From positions 1-19,063 of the forward strand of contig CADBJA010000019.1 in the NCBI GenBank assembly GCA_902794945.1: a DNA stretch of 19,063 nucleotides, given 5' to 3'. The stretch's first letter is position 1. Every line of letters begins with the position of its first letter. The position numbers and the translations under genes are program-made. Of the stretch, positions 2,354 to 17,829 are shown piece by piece. The notes below the pieces were generated by a model. The model had not been told where the DNA came from. It ran no database searches and saw only the letters and a list, made by a program, of their open reading frames with translations. The stretch comes from Oscillospiraceae bacterium (lineage in GTDB: Bacteria; Bacillota; Clostridia; Oscillospirales; Acutalibacteraceae).

Positions 2354-4015
2354 TTAAAAACTGAGATTTCTTAAAATCATACCGAGTCCGGATTTTACTT
2401 GCGTATTCTCACGAATGCCTTCCACATATTTTTTTCCCTTTTCGGCAGACACTTCATTGATAGCGGCATCTTTAATTAAGTCTTCACTCTTATGTTTTGC
2501 CTCAATAAGCATTGCCACTTCCGCAAATGTTTCATCATCACTTAAACCGCAAACGGTTTTCCCTTTTTTGGCTTTCGGATTGGTTAACAGTTCTGCAACC
2601 GGTCTGTTTTGAATGTTGGCAACAGCCATATCTTTTACCAAAGTAGAATCTTCATCCTTATACATAGCGGCACTATCTTTGGAAACATTCTCGGTAACAA
2701 GTTTATGGAACTGCTTTTCATCTTTCGCTTTGGCAATCTTTTCGACCGTTTTTAACGCTTTTTCTTTGGTAACGGAATCATTGACCTGCACATAGAAATA
2801 GCGGAAAGAAACGACTTCAAAGTTATCCGGATTTTCTTTATAAATCTTTTCTAACTGCTCTTTTGTGACATCTTTTAACATCACGCTCTTGTAATAAGAA
2901 TTGACATAAGCCGTTAATTCAAGGTATTCGGCAAAATCTTTTTCACTGATTTTCAAGCCATACATAGACTTCATATAATCTTCAAAAGACTGATTTGCCT
3001 GCTCGGCATAAGAATTTACATTTTTGATAGCATCCGTAACGGATTTTTCATCTTTCTCGGTCATTTCATAACCGGCTTTTTTACCCTCGTTGTAAATGCC
3101 GTAGTACAGTTTTAATGCATCTACGGTTTGGGATTTCAAGAAATCATCCCAAGTTTTATAATCTTCACTATTTTCATAGGTTTGTTTGGAAGGCTTTTCA
3201 TCAATATTAAAGCCGGAAGAAGTGTAATTTGCCGCATTCTCTATATAATAAACGGCTTTATATACATTCATCGGTACGGAGGTACCGTCCACCTTCACAA
3301 CGCTCTTATTGCCTGCAAAGAACAAAATGGCACACCAAATCGCAATCGCTAAAACCACACCCAAGCAGGCAAAGCCGACTTTTTTAAGCACCTTTTTCTT
3401 CTTTAAATGCTTTTGAATATCCTTTTCTTTATAAGCATCCAACACTTCGGTTTCAATGTGTATTTTTTCGCCGCACTGCGGGCAAACGATATTCTCATCA
3501 TCATCAATATCATCTGCCGAAAAATGCACAACCGCTTCACAAGCACCGCAATCGACAATGTAAGAGCCGCCTTTTTCATCTTCACTCCCATCATTTGATT
3601 TATCGACCAAATAATAATCGAGCGCCTCTTGATTAATTTCGATACTTTCATTACAATTCGGGCAAATGAGGTTACCCTCTTCATCTAAATCTTCTAACTC
3701 AAAATACACTTTTGTAGCGCAACTTTCACAATCAGCAGCATATTTTGCAAGCGTGATTTCTTTTTCAACTGCCTCTTCGTCGTTCACTTCATCACCCGGC
3801 GCATCGTTCACATCATTTAAAAAGGATTCTAATTCCTTTTCGCTTTCAACACCGTCAATCTCCGTATAAGTGTTTTCTTTCTTTTCGGATTCTGCTTCGG
3901 GTGTTGTTTCGGCAACAGTATCGGTTGCCTGCGTTTCATCGGATGCGGACACACTGTTTAAAGAAACTTCCGGTTCGAGTTCATTCTCGAGATTCTCTTT
4001 TTTATTTTCGTCCAT
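2354..4015 (-). CDS. Membrane protein with a cytoplasmic double zinc ribbon and an extracytoplasmic SurA_N-like chaperone domain and no parvulin domain.
   Basis: The N-terminal region is acidic. It carries two CxxC...CPxC zinc-ribbon motifs (CESCATKV...CPNCN and CGACEAVV...CPQCGEK). A TM helix follows (VGFACLGVVLAIAIWCAILFFAG), then an external domain similar to the neighbouring PrsA-like protein (VVKVDGTSVPMNVYKAVYYIENAANYT). An AAGGGG RBS sits 7 nt upstream. Confidence 0.6.
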   Translation of the reverse strand: MDENKKENLENELEPEVSLNSVSASDETQATDTVAETTPEAESEKKENTYTEIDGVESEKELESFLNDVNDAPGDEVNDEEAVEKEITLAKYAADCESCATKVYFELEDLDEEGNLICPNCNESIEINQEALDYYLVDKSNDGSEDEKGGSYIVDCGACEAVVHFSADDIDDDENIVCPQCGEKIHIETEVLDAYKEKDIQKHLKKKKVLKKVGFACLGVVLAIAIWCAILFFAGNKSVVKVDGTSVPMNVYKAVYYIENAANYTSSGFNIDEKPSKQTYENSEDYKTWDDFLKSQTVDALKLYYGIYNEGKKAGYEMTEKDEKSVTDAIKNVNSYAEQANQSFEDYMKSMYGLKISEKDFAEYLELTAYVNSYYKSVMLKDVTKEQLEKIYKENPDNFEVVSFRYFYVQVNDSVTKEKALKTVEKIAKAKDEKQFHKLVTENVSKDSAAMYKDEDSTLVKDMAVANIQNRPVAELLTNPKAKKGKTVCGLSDDETFAEVAMLIEAKHKSEDLIKDAAINEVSAEKGKKYVEGIRENTQVKSGLGMILRNLSF

Positions 4016-6506: not shown

Positions 6507-6599
6507 AGATTCACCTCTGTTGATTAATAAAAGTATTTTAAATGAAATGTGATAAAAAAATCAACACCTGTCCGTTATTTTATTGTAAATTAATTGTGA

Positions 6600-7310
6600 A
6601 CAAAATAATGATTTCGTTTTCTACTTCATTCTTTTTCAGGCGAATAATATCCCCCTCCTTATGCCTTGTGCATTAATAATCGGGTGCGGGTGTCCCGCCC
6701 TCAATTAGCACTGAAAGTGCGGCTTCATTAGGCGACTTGTCGCCGACTTCATTATTCATTAGCGAAGGCCTTACAACCGGGAGGGCACAGAGAGCCTCCC
6801 CTACAGGTTGCTGTGCTTTTTCTTTCGGGCGGATAGTATCCGCCCCTACTTGTGACTTATGCCTTGTGCCTTAAATTGACTACCCCTCTGTCACTTCGTG
6901 ACATCTCCCCTAAATTTGACAATCCCTCCACCGCTTACGCGGTCCCCCTCCTAACCGGAGCCCGTACCCTCTGTCACTTCGTGACATCTCCCTGCACTGC
7001 AGGGAGTCACCCTTTACACAAGGGAGGCAAATCGGGGCGATGTAAAGCGGTTAAGATGAAAACATCATATTTACATTCATCAAATATTAGAGCGAAGCGA
7101 AACGGGTGCGGGTGTTCCCGCCCTTCATATTGGCGAAGCCAATACTTCATATGCCGTTGGCATACTTCATAGCGAAGCTACTTCATTTGCGCACCGCGCA
7201 AACTTCATTCAGCGGTCTTTGACCGCTGCTGTCCCGCCCTCAATTATTCACTATTCACTCTTCATCCTTCATTAAAAATGGTAGAGGTCTTACGACCTCT
7301 ACCGATTTTT
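6600..7310. repeat. A 700-bp GC-rich noncoding hairpin array, the largest member of a repeat family dispersed through this window.
   Basis: Dozens of short palindromes are present. Five tandem units (7123-7225) have the form ACTTCAT plus a variable 9-20 nt palindrome. A 26-bp direct repeat (ccctctgtcacttcgtgacatctccc) occurs at 6884-6909 and 6967-6992. A 14-bp repeat (cttatgccttgtgc) occurs at 6658 and 6856. GGGTGCGGGTGT(T)CCCGCCC occurs at 6681 and 7105. A module ending in a terminator (7225-7312) is homologous to 44-127. Confidence 0.6.
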
Positions 7311-7312
7311 TT
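7280..7312 (-). terminator. Terminator of the TPM-domain gene.
   Basis: A 10-bp stem (ggtagaggtc 7280-7289 pairing with gacctctacc 7294-7303) has a ttac loop. A5 and T7 flank it, and it overlaps the stop codon at 7311-7313. Confidence 0.6.
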
Positions 7313-8108
7313 AAAATCCTCCGCCTCCGTGCGAAGCACCGGATGACGATGAGTGTGTGGAAGAACCGCCGCTTGATTTGCTTTGAATTGCGGTTCTCGT
7401 TACCGATGTGGTTCGGAAATTATCGTAAGCACCGGTCACATTGAGTGAACCGTTTACCAAATAATCGGTTGCATTTGCTTTAAACCGAACCGGTTGATAC
7501 TTCTTTTTTATGATGCTACGCGCAATAAAGCCCGCAATAATACCGACAACCAGCGCAATACCGATACCGAGAGCATAATTTCTCTTTTTAGGCGCACTGT
7601 TAACATCTAACGGTGTGCCGGCATCGGCTTGAGCAACCAATTCCGATGATACATCGGCAAATTTGAGAAATGCCTCTTCCCATGCGCCGCTATCCATCAA
7701 ATCTACAAGTTGTGAGCCGACATACTGAATACCGTAATCGGTAAAACATTTAATGCCGTAGCCCCTTGTTGAAATCCAACGCTCGGTTGTATCGCCGTTA
7801 TCATACACAAGCAGTAATACACCGCTTCTGTCACCCTGTCTGCCGACACCGTAACCGTTGTAATCATAATAATCATCGGCATAGTCCTGCTTGCTTTTGC
7901 CTTGTAAATCGGTTGTTGTAACAATCACAAAGTCCATATTGGTATCATCACTCAGTTTTTGCAGTTTGACTTCTACCGTTTGCACCTCTTCGGCAGTTAA
8001 GAGCCCTGCTTCATCAACCACAAGCGGTTTTTCGGCTGCAAAAGAAGGGATGATACAAAGTGATAAAACGAGTAATAAAACAACACTAAACGAAATTATT
8101 TTTTTCAT
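7311..8108 (-). CDS. TPM-domain (YgcG/UPF0603, YdjH-like) membrane protein.
   Basis: A signal peptide (MKKIISFSVVLLLVLSLCIIPSFA) is followed by the TPM core (LVVDEAGLLTAEEVQ...MDFVIVTT), one TM helix and a Gly/Ser-rich tail ending in GGGGF. The start is placed at the ATG at 8108, preceded by AAGGAGG with a 9-nt spacer. This trims 13 codons from the tracked ORF. Confidence 0.8.
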   Translation of the reverse strand: MKKIISFSVVLLLVLSLCIIPSFAAEKPLVVDEAGLLTAEEVQTVEVKLQKLSDDTNMDFVIVTTTDLQGKSKQDYADDYYDYNGYGVGRQGDRSGVLLLVYDNGDTTERWISTRGYGIKCFTDYGIQYVGSQLVDLMDSGAWEEAFLKFADVSSELVAQADAGTPLDVNSAPKKRNYALGIGIALVVGIIAGFIARSIIKKKYQPVRFKANATDYLVNGSLNVTGAYDNFRTTSVTRTAIQSKSSGGSSTHSSSSGASHGGGGF

Positions 8109-8122
8109 ATTCATCCACCTCC

Positions 8123-9229
8123 TTATATAATGCCTAAGAGCATACATACGGCAAATGCCAAGGCACCGGCACCGGCAGCAACGCCGGCAAATAAGGCTGC
8201 AAGTTTGCCTTTATCAATCGGCAAATTGCCCACAAATTTACCGGTTTGCCCGTTCATGGCAAAGGTATACTTTTCGCCTTTATAATCGGTGTTTAAAATC
8301 CATACCGGGTACAAAGCGTATTTCGATACACCGTTAATCAGTTGTACGGAACTGAAACGCGGTGTCACGGTGGCATAGCCGTGCACGGTATCGCGCAGGG
8401 TATCTTCCGCCGAATGTTTAATGCGTTCATTCGCTCTCGGGATACTCTCTTCCATACCGACATCATATTTATCGGCAAGGTAGCCTGCAAGATAGGCGGT
8501 TTGGAAATCCACAGCATCCGCAAAATTAAACGGTTCAATGGATTCCATCAATTCATCCGGCATTTTGGTAGAACCGTCCACCGGGATGTTAGCAAAACTC
8601 ATATTGCCCTGACGGTAAATATCGTAAAAACTCGTTTCGGTATATTCATACTTACTGTCACGCCAAGTTCTCACCTGTGTACCTTCATACTGTACGGAAG
8701 CATTGATATTGGAATCAAACAGCCAAAACGGCACATAAATACCCTTGATTTCTTCTAAGCGATTTTCGCTTTTAAAGGCTTTGGGGGCAAACTTTTTATT
8801 GCTCGTATATTCTTTTAATTTCTCTTTTGCCTGTTTTTTATCGAGTTTAAACGGAATGACAAAATTCGGCTTTAATACACCGGATAATCTGCCGCTTAAA
8901 ACCGTATTATTACCGCAATACGGGCAGGTAGTTGCCGCCGTGTTTTCATCCGCCGCAATCTCGCCGCCGCAGGATTTGCAGACAAACACATTCATACCGG
9001 TATCATCCCACTGTTCATTTTGGGAAGAACCGTTCCAATTAAATTCATCCTCCGTCGGCATTTCGGGAGGCACATCACCCTGTTGCGTGTTTAACACATC
9101 ATCCTTTTGTTGCAGTTCGCTCACATCAAATGTACTGTCGCAAAAAGGGCATTTCATTTTTTGTGTTGCACTGTCAAACTCTAAAGTGCCGCCGCACGCA
9201 GGGCATTTATAATCTAAATTAACAGCCAT
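8123..9229 (-). CDS. Double zinc-ribbon protein with a C-terminal TM anchor (YdjG-like).
   Basis: Two CPxCGG...CPxC ribbons are present (CPACGGTLEF...CPFCDS and CKSCGGEI...CPYCGN). A roughly 200-aa domain of unknown function follows, then a C-terminal hydrophobic helix (LAALFAGVAAGAGALAFAVCMLLGII). An AAAGGAGA RBS is present. The stop abuts the RBS of the TPM gene. Confidence 0.6.
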   Translation of the reverse strand: MAVNLDYKCPACGGTLEFDSATQKMKCPFCDSTFDVSELQQKDDVLNTQQGDVPPEMPTEDEFNWNGSSQNEQWDDTGMNVFVCKSCGGEIAADENTAATTCPYCGNNTVLSGRLSGVLKPNFVIPFKLDKKQAKEKLKEYTSNKKFAPKAFKSENRLEEIKGIYVPFWLFDSNINASVQYEGTQVRTWRDSKYEYTETSFYDIYRQGNMSFANIPVDGSTKMPDELMESIEPFNFADAVDFQTAYLAGYLADKYDVGMEESIPRANERIKHSAEDTLRDTVHGYATVTPRFSSVQLINGVSKYALYPVWILNTDYKGEKYTFAMNGQTGKFVGNLPIDKGKLAALFAGVAAGAGALAFAVCMLLGII

Positions 9230-9258
9230 ACTTTTCTCCTTTTAACAAAAAAGATTCA

Positions 9259-10278
9259 TTATTGTTTGGGTGTGCCGCAATTTTGGCAGAAGTTTGTGGT
9301 ATTCATACTGCCGCAATTCGGACAAGTCCACTGTGCAGGTGCCTGCGGTTGCACCGGTTGTTGTGCATAGCCGCCTTGAGTCGGTTGTTGGTAACCACCC
9401 TGAACGGGTTGCTGCTGATAGCCACCCTGCAGGGGTTGCTGCTGTGCGTAGCCGCCTTGCATAGGTTGTTGCTGCTGATAGCCGCCCTGCATAGGTTGCT
9501 GCTGTGCGTAACCTCCTTGCATCGGCTGTTGCTGTGCATAACCGCCTTGCATCGGTTGTTGTTGCTGATAGCCACCTTGCATAGGTTGTTGATAGCCGTT
9601 ATTCATTTGGGTATAGCCGCCTTGCATCTGTCCGTTCATAGCGCCCATACCCATGGCAGCACCCATCGCACCGCCCATAGCGGCGCCGCCGCCAAAGGTT
9701 TGCACAATTTCATTTGCCATTTGTTCTAAGCGCCTGTACTCATCCGTATAGCGGGAATCGGGTCTGCCGAAAGAATCGGTCAAATCAAATTTGATTTCAC
9801 TGAAATACGGGCTGTTAACACCGATATAGACTTCAAATTCATAACTGCAATCGTACTGCGGCGGGCTATACGGACGCTCATTGCCTTGAGAATCGGTCAT
9901 AAAGCGTTCCGTTTTATCTTCATCAATCCTGTAATTGGCATTCGTTACCTGTGTAAAGTCGATTAAATCGGCATTTTCGGCACGGTAATCACTCTTTCTG
10001 CTCACGCAGAATTTGCGCTGATTATCATCAATATAAATTTTGGTGCCGTGACCGTAAACCCTTGTAGGATTAAAGAAGTTAATGTTTTGCTTATTCTGCT
10101 CTCTGTAAGCGAGTTGTTGTTGAATATCTGCCACGGTAGAGCGCTTTCTCTCACTGAATAAGGGAGAAAGTTTTTTGTTACAATCGGAACAAATCGTTCC
10201 GTCTTCTACTTTTCTTGCGCCGAGCAAACCTACTTTTTTGCCGCAAATGGCACATTCTTTTTTATCAAAAAGTCCCAT
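9259..10278 (-). CDS. DUF4428-like N-terminal zinc-ribbon protein with a Q/G/Y-rich decapeptide repeat region and a C-terminal zinc ribbon.
   Basis: From the ATG at 10278 (GGAGG upstream; an alternative start lies 3 nt earlier) the protein begins MGLFDKKECAICGKK...DGTICSDC. A Met/Gly/Ala-rich stretch follows. There are about ten PMQGGY(A/Q)QQQ repeats. The C-terminus reads WTCPNCG...FCQNCG. Confidence 0.65.
   Translation of the reverse strand: MGLFDKKECAICGKKVGLLGARKVEDGTICSDCNKKLSPLFSERKRSTVADIQQQLAYREQNKQNINFFNPTRVYGHGTKIYIDDNQRKFCVSRKSDYRAENADLIDFTQVTNANYRIDEDKTERFMTDSQGNERPYSPPQYDCSYEFEVYIGVNSPYFSEIKFDLTDSFGRPDSRYTDEYRRLEQMANEIVQTFGGGAAMGGAMGAAMGMGAMNGQMQGGYTQMNNGYQQPMQGGYQQQQPMQGGYAQQQPMQGGYAQQQPMQGGYQQQQPMQGGYAQQQPLQGGYQQQPVQGGYQQPTQGGYAQQPVQPQAPAQWTCPNCGSMNTTNFCQNCGTPKQ
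9320..9610. repeat. Imperfect tandem repeats of about 30 bp inside a CDS, encoding QGGYAQQQPM decapeptides.
   Basis: Units of the form cat(a/c)gg(t/c)tg(c/t)tgctg(t/c)gc(g/a)ta(g/a)cc(g/a)cc(t/c)tg recur about nine times. Confidence 0.8.
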
Positions 10279-10309
10279 CATTAACCTCCAAAAATAATAT
10301 AACACAAAG

Positions 10310-10332
10310 AAGGGTGCGGATAGGCACACCCT
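10310..10332 (-). terminator. Weak intra-operon hairpin, a possible attenuator.
   Basis: A perfect 7-bp stem (aagggtg pairing with caccctt) has an 8-nt loop. On the minus strand it is followed by a weak CUUUGUGUU tract between the SPFH and DUF4428 genes. Confidence 0.3.
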
Positions 10333-10341
10333 TCCCTATTT

Positions 10342-11697
10342 TTATTGAATATCGTTATTATCAAACGGGTCGCCGCACTCGGGGCAGAACTTAGGCGGGT
10401 TGTGCGGGTCGGCAGGAGTCCAACCGCATTTATCACATCTGAAAAGCGGGGCGCCTGCCGGCTTCGGTTTGCCGCAGTTTTGGCAGAATTTGCCTTGGTT
10501 GACGGCACCGCAATCACAAGTCCAACCGCCCGCTGCTGCCGGTTCCGGCTTCGGTTTGCCGCAATTCGGGCAGAATTTGCCGGTTGCCTGTGTACCGCAA
10601 GCGCAAGTCCACGCACCCTGTGCCGGTGCCGCAGGTTGCTGCGCCTGTTGCACGGGTTGTTGCGGTTGTTGTGCCTGTTGCTGTTGCCCCATAGCAAACA
10701 GATTTTGTGCATTCATGCCGCCCATACCGCCGGCATTCATCGCCATACCCATACCGATAAAGCCGTTCATGGCGCCGCCTTCGTTGGCAGCCGCGGCACG
10801 CATCGCATCTGCCTGTGCGCCAACGAGCGTTGCACCTGCCATGGTGGGGTCACGCATGATAGCCGTGCGCTGTGCCTGCTTAATCAGTTCTTGGTCTTCT
10901 TCCGGCAATGTAATCGGGTTAAGGGCGATGGAAACAACGGATAAACCGCGCAGTTGTGACCATTTTGCAGTTAACGCCTCATTCATGGCACCCTCTAACT
11001 CGGTAGAGTGTGTTACGATTTGGTTAGGACGAAGTTCCAACTCACTGAGTTTACCGAATGCCGGTTGCAATGCGCTGATAAATTCGGTTTTGAGTTGATT
11101 GTCAATCTCTTCTCTGCCGTAAGCCTGCTCCACATTACCGCAAACATTGGTATAGAAAAGGAGCGGGTCGGTGATTTTGTAAGAATACACACCGCTGCAG
11201 CGAATAGAAACATCAATGTCTAAGCCGATATTTCTGTCAACCACTCTAAAGGGAATGGGATTGGGTGTACCGAACTTATTGTCAATCAATTCTTTGGTGT
11301 TGAAATAGTAAACACGCTGGTCTTTAGCGGTATCACCGCCAAAGGTGAAACGCTTACCGATGGTTTTAAAGGTGTTTTTGATGCTCTCACCGAGAGAACC
11401 TGCAAACACGCTCGGCTCTGTGGAAGTATCATATGTAAACTCACCGGGTTCCGCACAAACTTCAACAATCTTACCCTGCTCAACAATAATCATACACTGA
11501 CCGTCTGCCACAGCGATAAGCGAGCCGTTTGTGATAATGTTATCGTTTCCCTTGGTGTTGGAAGAACGAGAACCGGTGCGCTTTTGCCCTTTCACGACAA
11601 GCACATCTTTTTCAAGTGAATCACAATAAAAATACTCTTTCCACTGGTCTGCCATAGTGCCGCCTAATGCGCCGACACCTGCTTTAATAAGTCCCAT
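10342..11697 (-). CDS. SPFH/Band_7_1-family protein (YdjI-like, annotated elsewhere as 'virion core protein') with three C-terminal zinc ribbons.
   Basis: The ATG at 11697 is preceded by AAAGGA with a 9-nt spacer. The tracked ORF begins at an upstream TTG. The product begins MGLIKAGVGALGG...KEYFYCDSL...VVKGQ, typical of Band_7_1. Next come a Met/Gly-rich segment (GMGMAMNAGGMGGMNAQ) and a Q-rich linker. Three ribbons follow: WTCACG...FCPNCG, WTCDCG...FCQNCG and FRCDKCG...FCPECG. Confidence 0.8.
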   Translation of the reverse strand: MGLIKAGVGALGGTMADQWKEYFYCDSLEKDVLVVKGQKRTGSRSSNTKGNDNIITNGSLIAVADGQCMIIVEQGKIVEVCAEPGEFTYDTSTEPSVFAGSLGESIKNTFKTIGKRFTFGGDTAKDQRVYYFNTKELIDNKFGTPNPIPFRVVDRNIGLDIDVSIRCSGVYSYKITDPLLFYTNVCGNVEQAYGREEIDNQLKTEFISALQPAFGKLSELELRPNQIVTHSTELEGAMNEALTAKWSQLRGLSVVSIALNPITLPEEDQELIKQAQRTAIMRDPTMAGATLVGAQADAMRAAAANEGGAMNGFIGMGMAMNAGGMGGMNAQNLFAMGQQQQAQQPQQPVQQAQQPAAPAQGAWTCACGTQATGKFCPNCGKPKPEPAAAGGWTCDCGAVNQGKFCQNCGKPKPAGAPLFRCDKCGWTPADPHNPPKFCPECGDPFDNNDIQ

Positions 11698-11803
11698 ACT
11701 ATCAAATCCTTTCAAAGTGATTTATTTTTTATTGTAAGTGAGCACGCCGGCTCAGCCGACACATTTCACATACTGTTAATTTTAGTAAAACGCAGCATTT
11801 AAC

Positions 11804-11851
11804 ATTCCAAATTCTACATTCTACATTTTACATTCTACATTTTACATTCCA
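11804..11851. repeat. Seven tandem heptamers of ATT(C/T)TAC, which read AATGTA(A/G) on the minus strand.
   Basis: The run attccaa attctac attctac attttac attctac attttac attccat sits between the stop of the 11852 gene and the promoter region of the SPFH cluster. Confidence 0.8.
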
Positions 11852-12349
11852 TTAAGCCCACGGGTTTTGACTTTCGGGTTCACGAATACCGGCAAGCAAA
11901 AACTGATCCCACAAATACCACTTACCGTCTTTCGCGAGCCTTAAAACAATTCCTCGCGGACTGTCGGCACCGCCGGATTTTAAAAACAACTTGGCATACC
12001 CCTCATTTTGGTAGGAATACGGGTTTTCACTCACGGTGAGGGTGAAAGGTTCGGCAGGCGTATAATCGTTTGCCGGGGTTGCGCCGTCAAAATACGAGCG
12101 CGGCACATAATCTTTATCACGAAAACGGTCACGAATGAACTGTTTTTCCATTTCACTCATCGGTCGCGGTCCGCGCAAAACGGAAAGCATTTGCAAACTC
12201 AAATCCGCATTTTTCGGATACACGCAAAACGCAAGTACCGTTAATGCCGCGGTATCAAACGGAGTTGCCATTGCCGCTTGCGGTAATGCACAAAATGCCT
12301 CCACCGATGACGGAACGGATGAAAATGTGATTTTTTTAACCTGATCCAT
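11852..12349 (-). CDS. Hypothetical protein of 165 aa.
   Basis: It is a clean ORF with a GGGGAGG RBS 6 nt upstream. It has no signal peptide and no TM segment, and I recognise no family. Confidence 0.5.
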   Translation of the reverse strand: MDQVKKITFSSVPSSVEAFCALPQAAMATPFDTAALTVLAFCVYPKNADLSLQMLSVLRGPRPMSEMEKQFIRDRFRDKDYVPRSYFDGATPANDYTPAEPFTLTVSENPYSYQNEGYAKLFLKSGGADSPRGIVLRLAKDGKWYLWDQFLLAGIREPESQNPWA

Positions 12350-12456
12350 ATATACCTCCCCTATGCTGTATTACTCTCATTATAACATATAATAATAAAA
12401 AAAATTATTGTCATTAATGCTAATTTTTTTATTCTATTTTTGTATTAAAAATCAAA

Positions 12457-12484
12457 AATCCCGGTTTCAGGTAAAACCGGGATT
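12457..12484 (-). terminator. Rho-independent terminator of the partner-switching operon.
   Basis: A perfect 11-bp stem (aatcccggttt pairing with aaaccgggatt) has a caggta loop. On the minus strand it is followed by UUUGAUUUUU, just after the stop codon at 12491. Confidence 0.7.
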
Positions 12485-12490
12485 CTAATA

Positions 12491-14524
12491 TTAGTCAATT
12501 TTCTTTTTGAGCGTAAGAATATTTTTATCATCCTTGCGATCGTAAGCAACATCATCCATAATCTTTTTGGTCATAAAGATGCCAAGCCCGCCGATTTGCC
12601 TTTCATCTGCCGGCAATGTAATATCGGGGTCTTTTTTGGCAAGAGGGTTATACGCAACGCCGCTATCCTCAAAAATAAGGGTGAGCACATCGTTTTCAAA
12701 ATGTGCCTTCACATCGGCATACCCGCTCCCCGGCTGATATGCATAATTTGCGATATTGACAAATATTTCTTCTACAGCCAAAGCGATTTGCATTTGTACT
12801 TTGAGCGAAACCTGCTTTTGTTCAAGGTAAGCGGATACAAAATCCGTCACCTCATCCAACTTATCATTATTCGCTTCAATGTGAAGAGTTTTTTCCATTT
12901 CCTGTGCTCCGTAATACTCGAGGCAAAGCATGGTAATATCATCAAATTGCGGCGCTTCGCCAACAAAATCATCCACCGTTTGCTTCACATGTTCTAAAAT
13001 TTGTTTAGGGGGTTGCTCACGCACTTCGTGCAGGGCGCGCAACATCCGCTCACAACCGAACAAGGTATCATTTTTATCGGTTGCTTCGGGTACGCCGTCG
13101 GTATATAAGAACAGTTTATCCCCTTTTTGCAGTTGAATAACGGATTGCGTGTAATGCACGCCTTCCATCGCGCCCACAACCAAACCGTGCTTTTGAATAC
13201 AAAGGTTGAAAGTATCACCTTTTCTGTAAATCACGGGGTCATCGTGCCCGGCGTTTACGCAAGTGATTTTACCGGTAGACAGTTCCAAAATACCAAACCA
13301 AATGGTCACAAACATATCTGCAGAATTATTAGAGCAAATTCTGTCGTTAACAAACTCAATAATCTCAGCCGGTGTACCGCCTGTGGTGGTGCATTTGATT
13401 TTAATCAACATTTTTGTCACCATCATAAACAGTGCCGCCGGAATCCCTTTGCCGGATACATCTGCCATCACCAGCGCAATGTGGTCATCATCAACCGCAA
13501 AGAAATCGTAAAAATCACCGCCGACTTCTTTTGCCGGTGTCATCGAGGCATAAATATCAAATTCCGTACGCTCGGGGTAAGCCGGAAAATCGCTCGGCAC
13601 GGCGCCCGCCTGAATTTTTGCCGCTACATCAAGTTCGGTGTCGATGCGCTGCTTTTCACTCAAAGCCGCCGTCATATCATCAAAATACTTTAAAGTATCC
13701 AACTCCATTTGAGAGATGGAAGTTGCAAGCGTTTTAATCTCATTAATTTTGCTGATATTTTGAAGCATATCGGTGTTGCTGATTTCGTTTTCACGAGCAA
13801 ACCTGTCTGCCTCTTGAGAAATTTTGTGAATCGGGTTTATAAACTGGCGTCTTAAATAGTTAATTGCCATATAAGAAACCAAAATAACCGTTAATAATAC
13901 CGATAGTGTTACCTGGGTGATGTACGGGGCTCTGCCTTCGCTGAGCACCGTCATCGGGCGCTGCACGCACATCAGTGCCGTGACATCGCCTTTTGCATTA
14001 TTAATGGCAAGAATAGAAGTGATGTGCGGCGGTGCACCGTCCAAATCTTTGGTGCGCATCACTTTTTCTCTATCGGTCTTTTTTAAATAGACCTGCTCGT
14101 ATTTTTGCGCATATTCTTCGTTTGTGGTATTTCTTCTGTAGCCGATTTCCCAAGGGGTATAGCCGGTATCTTTATTCACCGAGTTAAATACGGATGTGAA
14201 ATGCTTATAATCTTTATCGGGTTTAATGACATAAATGATGGAGACATCCATTTTATCACACAGTGTATCCATCCACTGTTGGGACTGGTCGTGCTCTTCC
14301 ATAAACTGCCCGTTCAAATAAGCATCAATATGATCTCCGTTTACAAGCGTGGCTGCGGTTTGCGCAATACCGTAGGTGACCTCGTCATACTCTTTTTCAA
14401 GAGACTTTGAAAAAGAAATATAGCCGATAATGGTCACAATCCAACTGAAAACAACCAACAATATAATCAGCGAACTGATAATATTGAAAGATAAACTGTT
14501 TCGCAGTGATTTAATAAATCTCAT
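12491..14524 (-). CDS. Transmembrane sensor fused to a PP2C (SpoIIE/RsbU-type) phosphatase and an RsbW-like GHKL anti-sigma kinase domain.
   Basis: TM1 (IISSLIILLVVFSWIVTIIGYI) is followed by a roughly 155-aa external domain, then TM2 (VTLSVLLTVILVSYMAINYL) and a HAMP-like linker. The PP2C motifs are GGDFYDF, DVSGKG and YTDGV. The C-terminal domain is HATPase_c-like, with the N-box AVEEIFVNIANYAY and the G-box GGLGIFMTKKIMD. Confidence 0.8.
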   Translation of the reverse strand: MRFIKSLRNSLSFNIISSLIILLVVFSWIVTIIGYISFSKSLEKEYDEVTYGIAQTAATLVNGDHIDAYLNGQFMEEHDQSQQWMDTLCDKMDVSIIYVIKPDKDYKHFTSVFNSVNKDTGYTPWEIGYRRNTTNEEYAQKYEQVYLKKTDREKVMRTKDLDGAPPHITSILAINNAKGDVTALMCVQRPMTVLSEGRAPYITQVTLSVLLTVILVSYMAINYLRRQFINPIHKISQEADRFARENEISNTDMLQNISKINEIKTLATSISQMELDTLKYFDDMTAALSEKQRIDTELDVAAKIQAGAVPSDFPAYPERTEFDIYASMTPAKEVGGDFYDFFAVDDDHIALVMADVSGKGIPAALFMMVTKMLIKIKCTTTGGTPAEIIEFVNDRICSNNSADMFVTIWFGILELSTGKITCVNAGHDDPVIYRKGDTFNLCIQKHGLVVGAMEGVHYTQSVIQLQKGDKLFLYTDGVPEATDKNDTLFGCERMLRALHEVREQPPKQILEHVKQTVDDFVGEAPQFDDITMLCLEYYGAQEMEKTLHIEANNDKLDEVTDFVSAYLEQKQVSLKVQMQIALAVEEIFVNIANYAYQPGSGYADVKAHFENDVLTLIFEDSGVAYNPLAKKDPDITLPADERQIGGLGIFMTKKIMDDVAYDRKDDKNILTLKKKID

Positions 14525-14528
14525 ACCA

Positions 14529-14825
14529 TTAACCTATGTTAATAATGTCGGAAAAGCCGGTAATTTCGAACACTTCCATTACATCGGCGCAAGTGTTAAT
14601 CACCTTCATACTCCCCTGTTGATTCATTAATTTTTGTGCTTTTAAGAACACTCTTAAACCGGCAGAAGAAGTGTAGGGCATTTCAGCCAAATCAAACACC
14701 AATTCTTCAATACCGTCGGTATTTTCAAAGAGTGCTTCTTCTAACTGCGGGGCAGAGTTTGTATCGAGTCTGCCAACAATTTTAATTAAGAGTTTGCTGC
14801 CGTCCTGTTCCTTAATAATATCCAT
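14529..14825 (-). CDS. STAS-domain anti-sigma-factor antagonist (SpoIIAA/RsbV-like).
   Basis: The 98-aa product carries the conserved motif TSSAGLRVFL with a phosphorylatable Ser. It lies 4 nt upstream of the sensor gene. Confidence 0.85.
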   Translation of the reverse strand: MDIIKEQDGSKLLIKIVGRLDTNSAPQLEEALFENTDGIEELVFDLAEMPYTSSAGLRVFLKAQKLMNQQGSMKVINTCADVMEVFEITGFSDIINIG

Positions 14826-14837
14826 AATGTACCTCCA

Positions 14838-16007
14838 TTAATAATAAAGTGAATCCACTTTATCAATATTTGTTTTTAAATAGTTTTGGCAGTATTCTAC
14901 CAATTTTCTGCCCATTTCGGTCTCGAAACCGATTCTTTCGGCACTTCTGCGAAGCAAACGCGTGTAGCCGATTAAAGCGGCTTTGCGTTTTACATCGTTA
15001 ATAAAGGCTTCATCTTTATCGTCAAAATAATACTTTAAAGTTGCCTCCCAAAAACGCTCGGCATACTCATACTTAATCCCCAAAAAGCCGTGCACATTTT
15101 CTCTGTCCACACAACTGAAACCAAGGTAAGCAAGGAAAATCGCCGTAAATTCGAAAATCGGGTGACCTTGTGCGAGCGTATCCATATCAATAAGCAGGTT
15201 TTCACCGTTTTGCCTCATAATGTTTTTGACATGGTAATCGCCGTGAAGCATATTGTCGGAATCCGGAATTTCGCTCATCATTTTAAACAGTTTTTCGTAT
15301 GTAGCACTGTCTAAATACGGGCGGCAACGCTCTACCCAAGAGAGTGCCTCTTCCTTTTTATCCGGCAAGGTGCCTTTTTGTAAGAGAATAGCGTGTATGG
15401 TTTTGAGTATCTCTACACTTTCTTTAGCAAGTTGTTCGATGTTATCGGGGTCCTTATTGACCAGTTTTGCAAAACTCTCAGCCTGTAAGAGTTCAAACAC
15501 GGAGCCATATAAATCACCGACTTTAACCACATCATACGGAATGGCGGTCGGCACACCCATAACAAACGCTTTACGGGCAAGTTCACGCTCGTTGTGAATT
15601 TCATCTAACGAGTCGGGGTTTTTATACACTTTAATAACCGTGTCATCACCGATACGGTACACCAAACCGTTGGCGCCCTCACCGATGATTTCACAGCCCT
15701 CCACGCTCACTTCGCGATAGGCTTTGGTAATATCCATCATTTCGGTAAAGCCGGTCATATCAAAAATCTCATACACATCGCTGGATGCATTGATGATTTT
15801 GGTTGCGGGATTGGATTTTTTTAACCTCAAAACCACACGCAAGCCGGCACTGGAGATATATTCGAGTTTTTGCATATCAAGAACCAATGAATCGGTTCTT
15901 TCAAAGCCGATGGCGTTAATCTCTTTTTCAATTTCCGGTGCATTGCCGGAATCGATTCTACCCTCTAAATAAATGGTATAAGTTTGTTTTTCTTTTTTAA
16001 ACTCCAT
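14838..16007 (-). CDS. Fusion of an N-terminal STAS domain to a C-terminal protein-kinase-like (APH/CotS/choline-kinase fold) domain.
   Basis: The STAS part carries ISSAGLRVVL. The kinase-like part has a Gly-rich loop IGEGANGLVY, the lysine motif VIKVYK, a catalytic loop HGDYHVKN and a metal-binding LIDMD motif. Confidence 0.75.
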   Translation of the reverse strand: MEFKKEKQTYTIYLEGRIDSGNAPEIEKEINAIGFERTDSLVLDMQKLEYISSAGLRVVLRLKKSNPATKIINASSDVYEIFDMTGFTEMMDITKAYREVSVEGCEIIGEGANGLVYRIGDDTVIKVYKNPDSLDEIHNERELARKAFVMGVPTAIPYDVVKVGDLYGSVFELLQAESFAKLVNKDPDNIEQLAKESVEILKTIHAILLQKGTLPDKKEEALSWVERCRPYLDSATYEKLFKMMSEIPDSDNMLHGDYHVKNIMRQNGENLLIDMDTLAQGHPIFEFTAIFLAYLGFSCVDRENVHGFLGIKYEYAERFWEATLKYYFDDKDEAFINDVKRKAALIGYTRLLRRSAERIGFETEMGRKLVEYCQNYLKTNIDKVDSLYY

Positions 16008-16099: not shown

Positions 16100-16440
16100 T
16101 GGCAACGCCGTAATATCATTGTGCGCAACACACATCGTTTGCCACAGGCAACATTGTTTTGTGTTCGCGGTTTTTGCTCACGCAAAAAAACAAAGTTGTG
16201 CCTTGCGGACACAAACGTAAAGACTCACTAATGAAATATTTGGCTCTGCCAAATATGAAATAACGGCAACTCCATTATGAAGTATTGTAGTTATTCACTA
16301 CAATATGAAGCAAAATAAATTCCTATATATGCGAAGCATACTTCATAGCGACTGCTATTTCATATTCCGCAGGAATATTTCACAAATTCCAAAGGAATTT
16401 ATTTCATTGAAAAAACCACTTCATACGAAGTGGTTTTTTC
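16100..16440. repeat. A hairpin array from the same family as 6600-7310.
   Basis: ATGAAAT / ACTTCAT / ATTTCAT motifs alternate with small palindromes: atatttggc...gccaaatat, atgcgaagcat, atattccgcaggaatat and aaattccaaaggaattt. The run atgcgaagcatacttcatagcga nearly repeats the sequence at 7150-7180. Confidence 0.5.
16411..16440. terminator. Bidirectional terminator abutting the tRNA-Cys fragment.
   Basis: The sequence is aaaaaacc ACTTC atacg AAGTGG tttttt, a hairpin with flanking A and T runs. Confidence 0.5.
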
Positions 16441-16627: not shown

Positions 16628-17023
16628 TTAAATATTATCATTTAAATACCGGTCAATAGCATTAACAACAGTTGCTGCATTTTCAAACGCCTCTTGCGCA
16701 TCAATCAACTCAAACTTTGCTGCAATGTCATAATCACTTTGCCCTCGTGCATCGACCAATCGACCAAGCATCTTTGAAAGAGAAGCATCAAATCTTCCGT
16801 TTTTAATGTAATGCTGTCTAAAATAGGCAATTACACCGGAATGCTTTTTAGAATCGTAGCCATCTAACAATTCTAATGCCTTGAGGGAATGAAACGCTGC
16901 ATAATATGAACGATTAATTGCGCCATTATAATCCCCCACTTCAATATAAATGGGAATAAACTTCAAGATTTCTTTCGCATTCGATAATTCTAATTGAGAG
17001 AGTTCACTCACACTATTATGCAA
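16628..17023 (-). CDS. HEPN-domain protein, the putative toxin partner of the upstream nucleotidyltransferase.
   Basis: It has the R-x6-H motif (NRSYYAAFH) and is about 130 aa. It overlaps the 3' end of the NTase gene by 8 nt. Confidence 0.8.
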   Translation of the reverse strand: MHNSVSELSQLELSNAKEILKFIPIYIEVGDYNGAINRSYYAAFHSLKALELLDGYDSKKHSGVIAYFRQHYIKNGRFDASLSKMLGRLVDARGQSDYDIAAKFELIDAQEAFENAATVVNAIDRYLNDNI

Positions 17024-17354
17024 CTTTAATACCCTCTCTTTCTACATTCTGAAGAAAAGGCATTACATCTCTGAACTTGTCAAAGGTCTCGGTATCATAT
17101 GCCAATATCGAAACCGTGATATCGTTTTCCAAGGATAAATCACTACCTAAATCTACCAACAAATAGCGATAATCTCTTAATTCATCACGAGAGCAATGAA
17201 TCAAAACCATAATATCAATATCGGATTCATCATCATAATCACCGCGCGCATAGGAGCCGTATAACTTTACAGCACACAACTTTTCGCCAAAATTATCTTT
17301 GGCAAAGTCACAAATCTTATCTAATATTTGCTTTAAGGTGTTTTGATTGCACAT
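17016..17354 (-). CDS. Minimal nucleotidyltransferase (MNT, Pol-beta superfamily), the antitoxin-type partner of the HEPN protein.
   Basis: It carries the GS...DxD motif in LYGSYARGDYDDESDIDIMV. The start is set at the ATG at 17354, preceded by GGAGG with a 7-nt spacer. The tracked ORF is 20 codons longer. Confidence 0.8.
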   Translation of the reverse strand: MCNQNTLKQILDKICDFAKDNFGEKLCAVKLYGSYARGDYDDESDIDIMVLIHCSRDELRDYRYLLVDLGSDLSLENDITVSILAYDTETFDKFRDVMPFLQNVEREGIKVA

Positions 17355-17386
17355 GATAACGCCTCCTTTCTTAAACTCTAATATTA

Positions 17387-17414
17387 ATATATACTTTTTT
17401 AGTTGGAAAATCAA
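17387..17414 (-). promoter_or_regulatory. Promoter of the NTase-HEPN pair.
   Basis: On the minus strand it reads TTGATT (17409-17414), about 17 nt, then TATATA. A second copy of the same 35-bp block lies at 17830-17857. Confidence 0.45.
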
Positions 17415-17437
17415 ATAAATTTATTCTTTAAAGAGAT

Positions 17438-17800
17438 TCATACTACCCTCCTGTAAATCTCTGCGCCTTGATTAATATTTGCAAGAATCGGATCAGTTGT
17501 CGGCTTTCCTTCACAAAAGTAAAGAATATCATAATCTTGCGCAAAATCACTTTCAAAAGAGAACAGCTGCCTTTGAAAATCCTTAAACTCTTTAGAACGG
17601 AGGTATTCACTTCGACTCTTTTTTCCGAATACGGCAATATCAATATCAGAACGGTCTGTGCATCTTTCTTCTAAAGCAGAACCGAATAACACAATGCGGT
17701 GAATGTTTGCACATTTCTTTGCCTGCTCTGCAATATTTAAAATGTACTTTTTCTTAATGTCTGCCACATAGTTATTACTTACTTTTACTAATCTGCACAT
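17438..17800 (-). CDS. Second nucleotidyltransferase-domain protein with no adjacent HEPN gene.
   Basis: It carries the motif LFGSALEERCTDRSDIDIAV. The start is set at the ATG at 17800, preceded by GAGGT with a 7-nt spacer. The tracked ORF begins at a TTG. Confidence 0.75.
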   Translation of the reverse strand: MCRLVKVSNNYVADIKKKYILNIAEQAKKCANIHRIVLFGSALEERCTDRSDIDIAVFGKKSRSEYLRSKEFKDFQRQLFSFESDFAQDYDILYFCEGKPTTDPILANINQGAEIYRRVV

Positions 17801-17829
17801 AGGTACTACCTCATAATAATTCAATAGTA

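What the first reader, a model, noticed from the sequence alone, without database searches (positions are those of the whole stretch)
7311..11697. A YdjG/YdjH/YdjI-like cluster (SPFH, zinc-ribbon and TPM proteins) without PspA, carrying an extra DUF4428 zinc-ribbon/low-complexity protein
Four co-directional, tightly spaced genes encode an SPFH/Band_7_1 protein, a DUF4428-type zinc-ribbon protein, a double zinc-ribbon TM protein, and a TPM-domain (UPF0603/YgcG-like) TM protein. In B. subtilis the pspA-ydjGHI operon combines exactly these three partner classes with PspA: a zinc-ribbon protein (YdjG), a UPF0603/TPM protein (YdjH) and a Band_7_1 SPFH protein (YdjI). This is from memory of the literature. 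In this window the order is different (I-like, extra protein, G-like, H-like). No PspA gene is present; the gene immediately upstream of the cluster is an unrelated 165-aa hypothetical. A fourth protein sits between the I-like and G-like genes. The cluster therefore looks like a PspA-independent or remotely partnered variant of the membrane-stress module. Its own promoter region carries heptamer iterons, reported separately.
Basis: partly seen in the sequence, partly recalled or inferred. Interest (0 to 1): 0.7.

Follow-up and report, generated by a model that had tools for sequence, protein, structure and literature searches.

The report
PspA-less YdjI/G/H membrane scaffold cluster
These genes are true relatives of the Bacillus subtilis YdjG/YdjH/YdjI membrane-stress scaffold, in a PspA-free layout that is standard in gut Clostridia, with two recurrent, undescribed partner proteins, so this is a modest new variant of a known system, not an oddity.

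Summary
Four co-directional minus-strand genes sit at the stated coordinates:
- A, a Band_7_1 SPFH protein with three C-terminal zinc ribbons.
- B, a DUF4428 protein.
- C, a double zinc-ribbon, tail-anchored protein.
- D, a TPM protein.

Against a fetched Bacillus pspA-ydjGHI locus, C matches YdjG (36% identity, full length, E 5e-85), D matches YdjH (E 6e-12) and A matches YdjI (E 7e-13). No PspA is in the window.

Two parts of the interpretation need correcting.
- The PspA-less order I-G-H is not unusual. In 80 metagenomic loci, D follows C in 70/70 and A precedes C in 57/62. No neighbourhood examined holds a PspA.
- The "unrelated 165-aa hypothetical" (DUF6935) is a recurrent fifth member. 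It co-occurs with B and adjoins the TPM gene in 3/3 loci anchored on it.

Models give B a PH-like domain between two zinc ribbons, and DUF6935 an NTF2-like fold. B starts MGLFDKK, like the conserved MGLFDR start of PspA/Vipp1 helix α0.

Likely mechanism (inferred): C and D anchor the soluble SPFH protein at the membrane, and B and E are accessory clients. Whether a PspA encoded elsewhere takes part could not be tested. Verdict: a new variant of a known kind, of moderate interest.

The parts
11852..12349 (-). Gene E: DUF6935 protein, 165 aa, soluble, predicted NTF2-like fold. It is a recurrent fifth member of the cluster; here it lies upstream of A, elsewhere usually downstream of D.
12455..12486 (-). 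Terminator-like hairpin after the upstream SpoIIE-HATPase gene. It marks the likely 5' boundary of the transcription unit that starts with E.
   Evidence: 14-bp stem followed by a T run. Fold.
11698..11851 (-). E-A intergenic region. It holds the 7-nt tandem repeat (11802-11849, 6.9 copies) and a weak ECF/sigma-W-like motif, TGAAAT-N16-CGTG (11743-11768).
   Evidence: TRF. Motif search found 2 matches against 0.54 expected, and 14/200 shuffles reached 2. The closest relative, L005, has no such repeats here and instead has TTGAAA-N16-TATAAT.
10342..11697 (-). Gene A: YdjI-like soluble SPFH protein. Band_7_1 domain (residues 52-276, nt 10870-11544), a G/M/A/Q-rich low-complexity linker, and three C-terminal CxxC...CxxC zinc ribbons (nt ~10366-10611).
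   Evidence: Pfam. BLASTP against Bacillus YdjI: 22% identity over 335 aa, E 7e-13. Family alignment. No TM segment.
10304..10339 (-). Strong hairpin (dG -22 kcal/mol) with a T-rich tail, directly after the A stop codon. It could be a partial terminator or an mRNA stabiliser.
   Evidence: Hairpins of different sequence sit at the same place in L005 and L072, but not in L088, L090 or L091.
9259..10278 (-). Gene B: soluble accessory protein. MGLFDKK N-terminus, DUF4428 zinc ribbon (nt 10117-10257), PH-like domain (residues ~73-199, nt 9682-10062), disordered QQQPMQGGY decapeptide repeats (nt ~9349-9681), and a C-terminal zinc ribbon (nt 9271-9330) resembling those of A.
8123..9229 (-). Gene C: YdjG orthologue. 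Two N-terminal zinc ribbons (residues 6-33 and 81-108), a conserved ~230-aa central domain, and a C-terminal tail-anchor TM segment (residues 350-368).
   Evidence: BLASTP against Bacillus YdjG: 36% identity, full length, E 5e-85. Alignment. Hydropathy. Family size: more than 8000 clusters at 90% identity and 1769 clusters at 50% identity with E<=1e-30.
7311..8108 (-). Gene D: YdjH-like bitopic TPM protein. Signal peptide or N-terminal TM, extracytoplasmic TPM domain (residues 30-152), a TM segment (178-196), and a cytoplasmic tail with a juxtamembrane stretch similar to YdjH's and a Ser/Gly-rich end.
   Evidence: Pfam TPM E 1e-24. BLASTP against Bacillus YdjH: 26% identity over the full length, E 6e-12. 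PDB sequence relatives are TPM proteins 5anp, 7tbr and 2kw7. Hydropathy.
7280..7303 (-). Intrinsic terminator at the 3' end of the cluster.
   Evidence: 10-bp GC-rich stem followed by ATTTTTAATG.

Best explanation
This is a five-gene, PspA-less version of the Bacillus YdjG/YdjH/YdjI membrane-associated SPFH scaffold. It is the form typical of gut and rumen Clostridia.

Shown:
- C is a full-length YdjG orthologue: cytoplasmic double zinc ribbon, a conserved central domain and a tail anchor.
- D is a YdjH-type bitopic protein with an outward-facing TPM domain and a cytoplasmic tail.
- A is a soluble YdjI-type Band_7_1 SPFH protein with a disordered linker and zinc-ribbon tail.
- The three genes are almost invariably adjacent, in the order A-C-D, without pspA.
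- B (DUF4428 ribbon, PH-like domain, disordered repeats, terminal ribbon) and E (DUF6935, NTF2-like) are recurrent, co-occurring accessory members.

Inferred, by analogy with the B. subtilis experiments in which YdjG and YdjH are required to bring soluble YdjI to the membrane:
- C and D form the membrane platform.
- D's extracytoplasmic TPM domain reports or contacts the envelope side.
- The cytoplasmic tail of D and the cytoplasmic body of C recruit A, which oligomerises as an SPFH scaffold under the membrane.
- B shares A's linker-plus-ribbon tail, has a PH-like domain, and starts with MGLFDKK, like the start of the PspA/Vipp1 helix α0. I infer it is a second peripheral client or adaptor on the same platform.
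- E is a further soluble partner.
- The hairpin after A may lower read-through, so that the scaffold subunit is made in excess over B, C and D.

Whether a PspA/IM30 protein encoded elsewhere is also recruited is unresolved.
For: - Domains.
- Direct homology to a fetched Bacillus pspA-ydjGHI locus.
- Topology.
- Synteny in 80 metagenomic loci: D follows C in 70/70 and A lies co-directionally upstream in 57/62, in 52 of these within 125 nt.
- No PspA-like ORF in the window or in loci L001-L089, and no PspA_IM30 among the Pfam-annotated neighbours, which also cover L090-L096.
- B and E: 3/3 loci anchored on DUF6935 adjoin the TPM gene. 3/3 loci anchored on DUF4428 adjoin a Band_7_1 gene, and two of them show A-B-(x)-C-D-(x)-E.
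- Folds.
- Shared tail ribbon.
- N-terminal motif: within the fetched loci and the window (2225 ORFs), the pattern occurs only in B homologues, E homologues and Bacillus PspA. MGLFDRxxRV is the conserved start of helix α0 (PMC13051332).
- Experimental model for the YdjG/H/I roles: PMC8581546.
- DUF4428 or a PH domain stands in for the TM anchor in TM-less SNIPE nuclease homologues, which hints at membrane targeting (10.1101/2025.11.03.685801).
Against: - No experiment exists for any clostridial member. Every interaction is inferred from B. subtilis, whose A and D counterparts share only 22-26% identity.
- In B. subtilis the known output of the module is PspA recruitment, and no output is identified here.
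- The N-terminal motif is only 6-7 residues. The search pattern was written after I had seen B and E, so only the PspA hit is an independent observation.
- The window's own E lacks the motif.
- The A-B hairpin is not conserved in all relatives.
- The ECF-like promoter motif is statistically weak.
Confidence: 0.7

Rival explanations
1. This is a conventional Psp module split across the genome. The cluster does exactly what YdjGHI does in B. subtilis, recruiting a PspA/IM30 protein to the membrane, but pspA is encoded at another locus. B and E would then be minor additions.
For: The only experimentally known role of YdjG/H/I is PspA recruitment (PMC8581546). Ravi et al. suggest that PspA-free operons of other Psp partners may use PspA encoded elsewhere (PMC11237479). 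Nothing here rules out a distal pspA.
Against: Neither the 96 related loci examined (about +/-8-10 kb where the contig allowed) nor the window holds a PspA. If PspA were an obligate partner, linkage would be expected at least sometimes, as it is in Bacillus. In B. subtilis, ydjG and ydjH deletions give cell-shape defects that pspA and ydjI deletions do not, so the membrane pair already has PspA-independent roles.
Confidence: 0.3
2. This is an anti-phage or other conflict system. The SPFH, zinc-ribbon and PH-like proteins would form a membrane-associated sensor and effector that acts on infection.
For: DUF4428 occurs at the N-terminus of some homologues of the membrane nuclease SNIPE. B's N-terminal part matches a phage protein family of unknown function, phrog_888, E 8.7e-14. 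HEPN/nucleotidyltransferase pairs lie about 5 kb away in the window.
Against: There is no meaningful PADLOC hit for any of the five proteins; the only hits are weak zinc-ribbon matches of C. No nuclease, protease, NTPase or other effector domain is present. The flanking genes differ between loci and are housekeeping genes, not defence islands. The core is orthologous to a stress-response operon.
Confidence: 0.05
3. The adjacency of B and E is incidental. Only A, C and D form a functional unit, and B and E are unrelated neighbours.
For: Most of the 80 metagenomic loci carry A-C-D with neither B nor E nearby. E sits on different sides of the cluster in different genomes. The window has a hairpin between A and B, and about 150 nt between E and A.
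Against: Searches anchored on E and on B, independent of the C-based search, landed in the cluster every time, in 6/6 look-ups. Of 12 B-containing loci with enough flank, 11 also carry E. In L008 and L009, E starts at the D stop codon.
Confidence: 0.05

Closest known systems
Bacillus subtilis pspA-ydjGHI operon (PspA-associated SPFH module; Scholz et al. 2021, PMC8581546; Ravi et al. 2024, PMC11237479)
   Same: All three Ydj components have homologues here with the same architectures.
- YdjG: two zinc ribbons, a conserved domain and a C-terminal hydrophobic anchor (36% identity, full length).
- YdjH: signal/TM, TPM domain, TM segment and a Ser/Gly-rich tail.
- YdjI: Band_7_1 SPFH domain, low-complexity linker and C-terminal zinc ribbon, with no TM segment.
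The genes are co-directional and tightly spaced.
   Different: - No pspA lies in the window or next to any of the clostridial relatives sampled.
- The gene order is I-(B)-G-H instead of pspA-G-H-I.
- A carries three C-terminal ribbons where YdjI has one, and has a ~24-aa N-terminal insertion.
- Two extra partner families are present: DUF4428/PH-like and DUF6935/NTF2-like.
- A sigma-W-type promoter is not established.
SPFH-NfeD and HflK/C-type SPFH membrane scaffolds (stomatin, flotillin, HflKC)
   Same: An SPFH-domain protein is expected to oligomerise at the membrane together with dedicated membrane partners encoded in the same operon.
   Different: - A belongs to the Band_7_1 branch and has no membrane anchor of its own.
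- The partners are TPM and zinc-ribbon proteins.
- No NfeD or FtsH-type protease partner is present.
PspA/Vipp1 (IM30) helix α0
   Same: B, and many homologues of E, begin with MG[LF]FDK or M[GS][LI]FDKLK. The conserved start of the membrane-binding amphipathic helix α0 is MGLFDRxxRV (PMC13051332).
   Different: No ESCRT-III/PspA fold follows the motif. In B a zinc ribbon follows it directly. The window's own E lacks it. The resemblance is 6-8 residues long.
TPM-domain proteins (TLP18.3/Psb32, E. coli YgcG, BA41)
   Same: D has a bona fide TPM domain, placed outside the membrane, followed by a TM segment.
   Different: D belongs to the YdjH-like subgroup, which is always paired with a YdjG-like gene (70/70 loci). 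No phosphatase or photosystem role is implied.

Membership tests
YdjG/YdjH/YdjI module (B. subtilis type) | YdjG orthologue: two N-terminal zinc ribbons, a conserved central domain and a C-terminal membrane anchor | tested here: met
   BLASTP of C against Bacillus stercoris YdjG: 36% identity over the full length, E 5e-85. Invariant CxxC pairs and core motifs in the alignment. Hydrophobic segment at residues 350-368.
YdjG/YdjH/YdjI module (B. subtilis type) | YdjH orthologue: bitopic TPM-domain protein encoded immediately next to the YdjG gene | tested here: met
   Pfam TPM E 1e-24. 26% identity over the full length, E 6e-12. D follows C in 70/70 related loci.
YdjG/YdjH/YdjI module (B. subtilis type) | YdjI orthologue: soluble Band_7_1 SPFH protein with a low-complexity linker and a C-terminal zinc ribbon | tested here: met
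   Pfam Band_7_1 E 3.7e-19. 22% identity over 335 aa, E 7e-13, including the tail. No TM segment.
pspA-ydjGHI operon (Psp system proper) | A pspA/IM30 gene in the same operon | tested here: not met
   No PspA in the window by Pfam or by phmmer --max. None in any clostridial relative: phmmer over L005-L089, and Pfam-annotated neighbours for L005-L009 and L090-L096.
pspA-ydjGHI operon (Psp system proper) | A PspA/IM30 protein somewhere in the genome that the module recruits | not testable with these tools
   Only 19 kb of the source genome is available, and relatives can be read only to about +/-10 kb.
pspA-ydjGHI operon (Psp system proper) | Envelope-stress (sigma-W/ECF-type) promoter | tested here: inconclusive
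   TGAAAT-N16-CGTG lies 46-71 nt upstream of A, but the pattern has 2 matches in the window against 0.54 expected, and 14/200 shuffles reach 2. The closest relative has a sigma-70-like TTGAAA-N16-TATAAT instead.
pspA-ydjGHI operon (Psp system proper) | Physical interactions YdjG-YdjH and YdjH-YdjI, and membrane recruitment of YdjI | not testable with these tools
   This needs two-hybrid, pull-down or localisation experiments. The tools offer only monomer structure prediction.
SPFH-NfeD operons | An NfeD-family partner gene next to the SPFH gene | tested here: not met
   No NfeD domain in any of the five products or their neighbours.
Known anti-phage defence systems (PADLOC-DB 2.0) | Significant match of the components to a defence-system model | tested here: not met
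   A, B, D and E have no hit. C has only weak zinc-ribbon matches: Cas10 7.3e-05 with no stretch passing on its own, and PDC-S64 0.0049.
Pfam DUF4428 / DUF6935 | Match above Pfam's gathering score | tested here: met
   B: DUF4428, 60.7 bits against a cut-off of 27.8. E: DUF6935, 195.8 bits against a cut-off of 27.

The most novel reading that the evidence does not exclude
In these PspA-less clostridial clusters, the DUF4428/PH-like protein (and, in most genomes, the DUF6935 NTF2-like protein) takes PspA's place as the client of the SPFH platform. Both would be recognised or membrane-targeted through an N-terminal MGLFDK peptide that mimics the conserved MGLFDR start of the PspA/Vipp1 helix α0. 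If so, the YdjG/H/I platform would be a general receptor for 'α0-tagged' proteins, not a PspA-specific adaptor, and it would have an ESCRT-III-independent output in a large part of the gut microbiota.
Probability: 0.2. Interest if true: 0.75.

Novelty: new variant of a known kind. Interest (0 to 1): 0.5.

Why it matters
YdjG/H/I is known only as the membrane adaptor that lets B. subtilis PspA reach the membrane.

This analysis shows that the same triad is very widespread in gut and rumen Clostridia without a linked pspA. The YdjG family alone has 1769 clusters at 50% identity with E<=1e-30. That suggests the triad is a self-standing membrane module.

It also assigns a genomic context and predicted folds to two families with essentially no literature. 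A full-text search found no paper that mentions DUF6935. Three papers mention DUF4428, and neither of the two listed is about this cluster.

The MGLFDK N-termini give a concrete, testable idea of how clients are selected. These proteins come from abundant gut anaerobes, in which envelope-stress systems are almost unstudied.

Tried and rejected
- NCBIfam gave no informative family for any of the five proteins.
- PADLOC gave no defence-system match.
- PHROGs gave only unknown-function families.
- PDB sequence searches found no solved relative of A or of C beyond generic zinc ribbons, and only TPM domains for D.
- A profile-profile comparison of the YdjG family with the DUF6935 family found no relationship. 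I tried it because both are said or predicted to contain NTF2-like domains.
- The AFDB50 fold library was unavailable.
- Extra co-directional genes in relatives' extended clusters mostly have no Pfam match, apart from DUF5067, and none is PspA.
- The partner-switching genes upstream (SpoIIE-HATPase, STAS, STAS-APH) are syntenic only in the closest relative and not elsewhere, so I did not count them as part of the system.
- I used the single genome-contig scan to fetch the Bacillus reference locus with a published ydjG primer. No taxonomically labelled census of the cluster was therefore possible.


Full report
**1. What is in the sequence**

- A: 10342-11697, 451 aa.
- B: 9259-10278, 339 aa.
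- C: 8123-9229, 368 aa.
- D: 7311-8108, 265 aa.

The intergenic gaps are 63, 29 and 14 nt. A clear intrinsic terminator follows D at 7280-7303.

- A: Band_7_1, E 3.7e-19.
- B: DUF4428, E 1.2e-16.
- C: two zinc ribbons.
- D: TPM_phosphatase, E 1e-24.

Hydropathy shows that A and B are soluble. C has a single hydrophobic segment at its extreme C-terminus, which makes it tail-anchored. D has a signal peptide or N-terminal TM segment and a second TM segment, which puts the TPM domain outside the cell and a ~70-residue tail inside.

**2. Testing the YdjG/H/I idea**

A ydjG cloning primer printed in Scholz et al. 2021 (PMC8581546) retrieved the pspA-ydjGHI locus of four Bacillus species. I used B. 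stercoris (L002).

| Window gene | Bacillus protein | Identity | E-value |
|---|---|---|---|
| C | YdjG | 36%, end to end | 5e-85 |
| D | YdjH | 26%, full length, including the cytoplasmic juxtamembrane stretch | 6e-12 |
| A | YdjI | 22% over 335 aa, including the low-complexity linker and zinc-ribbon tail | 7e-13 |

The homology claim is therefore supported, very strongly for C and adequately for A and D.

**3. PspA**

No ORF in the window resembles PspA. Pfam on the larger ORFs found none. phmmer --max with Bacillus PspA gave a best non-Bacillus E of 2.9.

The rest of the window encodes IspF, a PpiC-type rotamase, a 553-aa zinc-ribbon protein, a HAD hydrolase, HlyIII, a SpoIIE-HATPase fusion, two STAS proteins, HEPN/nucleotidyltransferase pairs and tRNAs.

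**4. How unusual is the arrangement?**

It is not unusual. The C family is very large:
- More than 8000 clusters at 90% identity. The closest named hits are MAGs labelled Clostridia, Eubacterium or Ruminococcaceae.
- 1769 clusters at 50% identity with E<=1e-30.

A metagenome scan returned 80 loci with C homologues at 52-67% identity, many of them explicitly labelled human gut. I classified their ORFs with phmmer:
- D directly follows C in 70/70 loci with enough flank.
- A lies co-directionally upstream in 57/62 loci. In 52 of these it is within 125 nt. In the other five, extra genes are inserted between A and C.
- No PspA-like ORF occurs in any locus.

Pfam annotation of the called genes in 12 further loci (L005-L009 and L090-L096) also lists no PspA_IM30. 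Only the four Bacillus loci have pspA.

The order I-G-H without pspA is therefore the standard clostridial form of the module.

**5. The "extra" protein B and the "unrelated" upstream gene E**

B has about 900 database relatives, all annotated only as DUF4428 proteins. The upstream 165-aa gene (E, 11852-12349) is DUF6935, E 5.8e-58, with about 2500 relatives at 70-79% identity among those listed.

Both recur in the cluster:
- In L008 and L009, E starts at the D stop codon.
- In L028, L063, L072, L083 and L088, both B and E are present.
- Three look-ups anchored on E homologues all landed beside the TPM gene. Where the contig allowed, they showed Band_7_1, DUF4428, a 171-aa gene, a YdjG-like gene, TPM, (a 266-aa gene in L090 only) and DUF6935 in that order.
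- Three look-ups anchored on distant B homologues all landed beside a Band_7_1 gene. Two showed A-B-(x)-C-D-(x)-E.
- Of 12 B-containing loci with enough flank, 11 also carry E.

The functional unit here is therefore five genes, 7311-12349, and the window shows a permuted order, E-A-B-C-D.

A terminator-like hairpin after the upstream SpoIIE gene (12455-12486) fits E being the first gene of the unit.

**6. What B and E look like**

B (AlphaFold2 with a 50-sequence alignment):
- A confident N-terminal zinc ribbon and a helix.
- A β-sandwich capped by a C-terminal helix (residues ~73-199, pLDDT above 90).
- About 110 disordered residues, made of QQQPMQGGY decapeptide repeats. At the DNA level this is a 30-nt repeat of 6.1 copies.
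- A terminal zinc ribbon.

No sequence relationship between E and C was detectable.

**7. An N-terminal signature**

- B homologues start MG[LF]FDKK. Residues M1, L3, F4, K6 and K7 are at least 90% conserved.
- Many E homologues carry an N-terminal extension that starts M[GS][LI]FDKLK.
- A homologues start MGLIKAG.

I scanned all 2225 ORFs of at least 80 aa in the fetched loci and the window for M[GS][LIFM][FIWLM][DGSN][KR] near the start. The pattern hit only B homologues, E homologues and Bacillus PspA, which starts MSIIGRFKD.

[quoted passage not shown] The Vipp1 peptide sequence is given.

I wrote the pattern after seeing B and E, so only the PspA hit is independent. The window's own E lacks the extension. 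I treat this as a lead, not as evidence.

A further hint at membrane targeting comes from TM-less homologues of the membrane nuclease SNIPE, which carry either a PH domain or DUF4428 where the TM anchor would be.

**8. Regulation**

A strong hairpin (dG -22 kcal/mol) with a T-rich tail follows the A stop codon at 10304-10339. Hairpins of different sequence sit at the same place in L005 and L072, but not in L088, L090 or L091. It may be a partial terminator that sets a high A to B/C/D ratio. This is inference.

The E-A spacer holds the 7-nt repeat array reported separately (11802-11849, 6.9 copies). The closest relative, L005, has no such repeats there and instead has TTGAAA-N16-TATAAT.

A sigma-W-like TGAAAT-N16-CGTG lies at 11743-11768, but it is not statistically convincing: 2 matches against 0.54 expected, and 14/200 shuffles reach 2.

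**9. Mechanism**

In B. subtilis, YdjI is soluble, needs both YdjG and YdjH to reach the membrane, and in turn recruits PspA. YdjG binds YdjH, and YdjH binds YdjI and PspA. ydjG and ydjH mutants also have cell-shape defects that pspA and ydjI mutants lack (PMC8581546).

By homology, I infer that C and D form the membrane platform and that A is the recruited SPFH scaffold. B, and E where present, are additional soluble clients.

The missing piece is the output. It could be the SPFH assembly itself, with B and E, or a PspA encoded elsewhere. I could not test the second option because only 19 kb of the genome is available.

**10. Comparison with the literature and verdict**

- Ravi et al. 2024 describe the Bacillus operon and the domain architectures, but they treat PspA-YdjH as the conserved pair. 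The passages of their PspA-free section that I retrieved cover PspC and Toastrack, not this module.
- Popp et al. 2022 and Makarova et al. 2024 mention band-7/SPFH (YdjI) genes only next to pspA.
- A full-text search found no paper mentioning DUF6935. Three papers mention DUF4428, and neither of the two listed is about this cluster.
- There is no defence-system match.

The core is a known kind of system. The PspA-less five-gene form, with a PH-like/DUF4428 partner and an NTF2-like/DUF6935 partner, is a new variant as far as I could find. It is common in gut Clostridia, so it is not a peculiarity of this window. Interest is moderate, at 0.5.

Noticed in passing
window 7139-7210 (-), within the ~720-nt non-coding stretch 6552-7270: A sub-threshold Gut-1 RNA match (37 bits against a gathering score of 50, E 1.7e-05) lies just downstream of the cluster's terminator. 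On the + strand the region is a run of short hairpins, each followed by ACTTCAT (about 7130-7215). There are also longer direct repeats: GGGTGCGGGTGT(T)CCCGCCCT at ~6683 and ~7104, and CTCTGTCACTTCGTGACATCTCCC at ~6886 and ~6970. No ORF there has a Pfam match.
   Followed up: partly
window 16335-16409 (-): A Gut-1 RNA match above the gathering score (56 bits against 50), between the STAS-APH gene and the HEPN/nucleotidyltransferase genes. It fits an origin in a gut or rumen organism.
   Followed up: no
window 11802-11849 and 7245-7264: A 7-nt tandem array (ACATTCT on the + strand, 6.9 copies) lies between E and A. A shorter 7-nt array (TATTCAC, 2.9 copies) lies just past the terminator of D. 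The closest relative (L005) has no such array in its E-A spacer, so the repeats are not a conserved feature of the cluster's promoter region.
   Followed up: partly
L041-type alignment A3; loci L028, L063, L068, L083, L090-L094, L096: Many DUF6935 homologues carry a ~20-35-aa N-terminal extension that starts M[GS][LIF]FDK[LI]K, resembling the PspA/Vipp1 helix α0. The window's copy and its closest relatives lack it. All of them share an invariant, predicted-disordered C-terminal tail ending PES.NPWA.
   Followed up: partly
L063 11954-12961, L072 1714-2937 and 2961-3446, L088 3556-8114, L090/L091 171-aa genes, L096 9013-9960: In other genomes the cluster is larger. It carries further co-directional genes that mostly have no Pfam match: proteins of ~335, 407, 445 and 171 aa, DUF5067 proteins, and in L088 a second, 540-aa YdjG-like protein right after DUF6935. 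These may be more accessory members.
   Followed up: partly
window 12491-16007 (-): A partner-switching set sits directly upstream: a SpoIIE phosphatase fused to an HATPase_c_2 (RsbW-like) kinase domain, a STAS protein, and a STAS-APH kinase fusion. It is syntenic with the cluster only in the closest relative (L005), so I did not count it as part of the system.
   Followed up: partly
window 16628-17824 (-): A HEPN gene overlaps a nucleotidyltransferase gene (a likely MNT-HEPN toxin-antitoxin pair), and a second nucleotidyltransferase gene lies next to them.
   Followed up: no
window 2354-4015 (-): A 553-aa protein with weak double-zinc-ribbon matches (residues ~93-188) and no other Pfam domain. 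It is conserved next to the rotamase gene in L005. I did not examine whether it relates to the zinc-ribbon tails of A and B.
   Followed up: no
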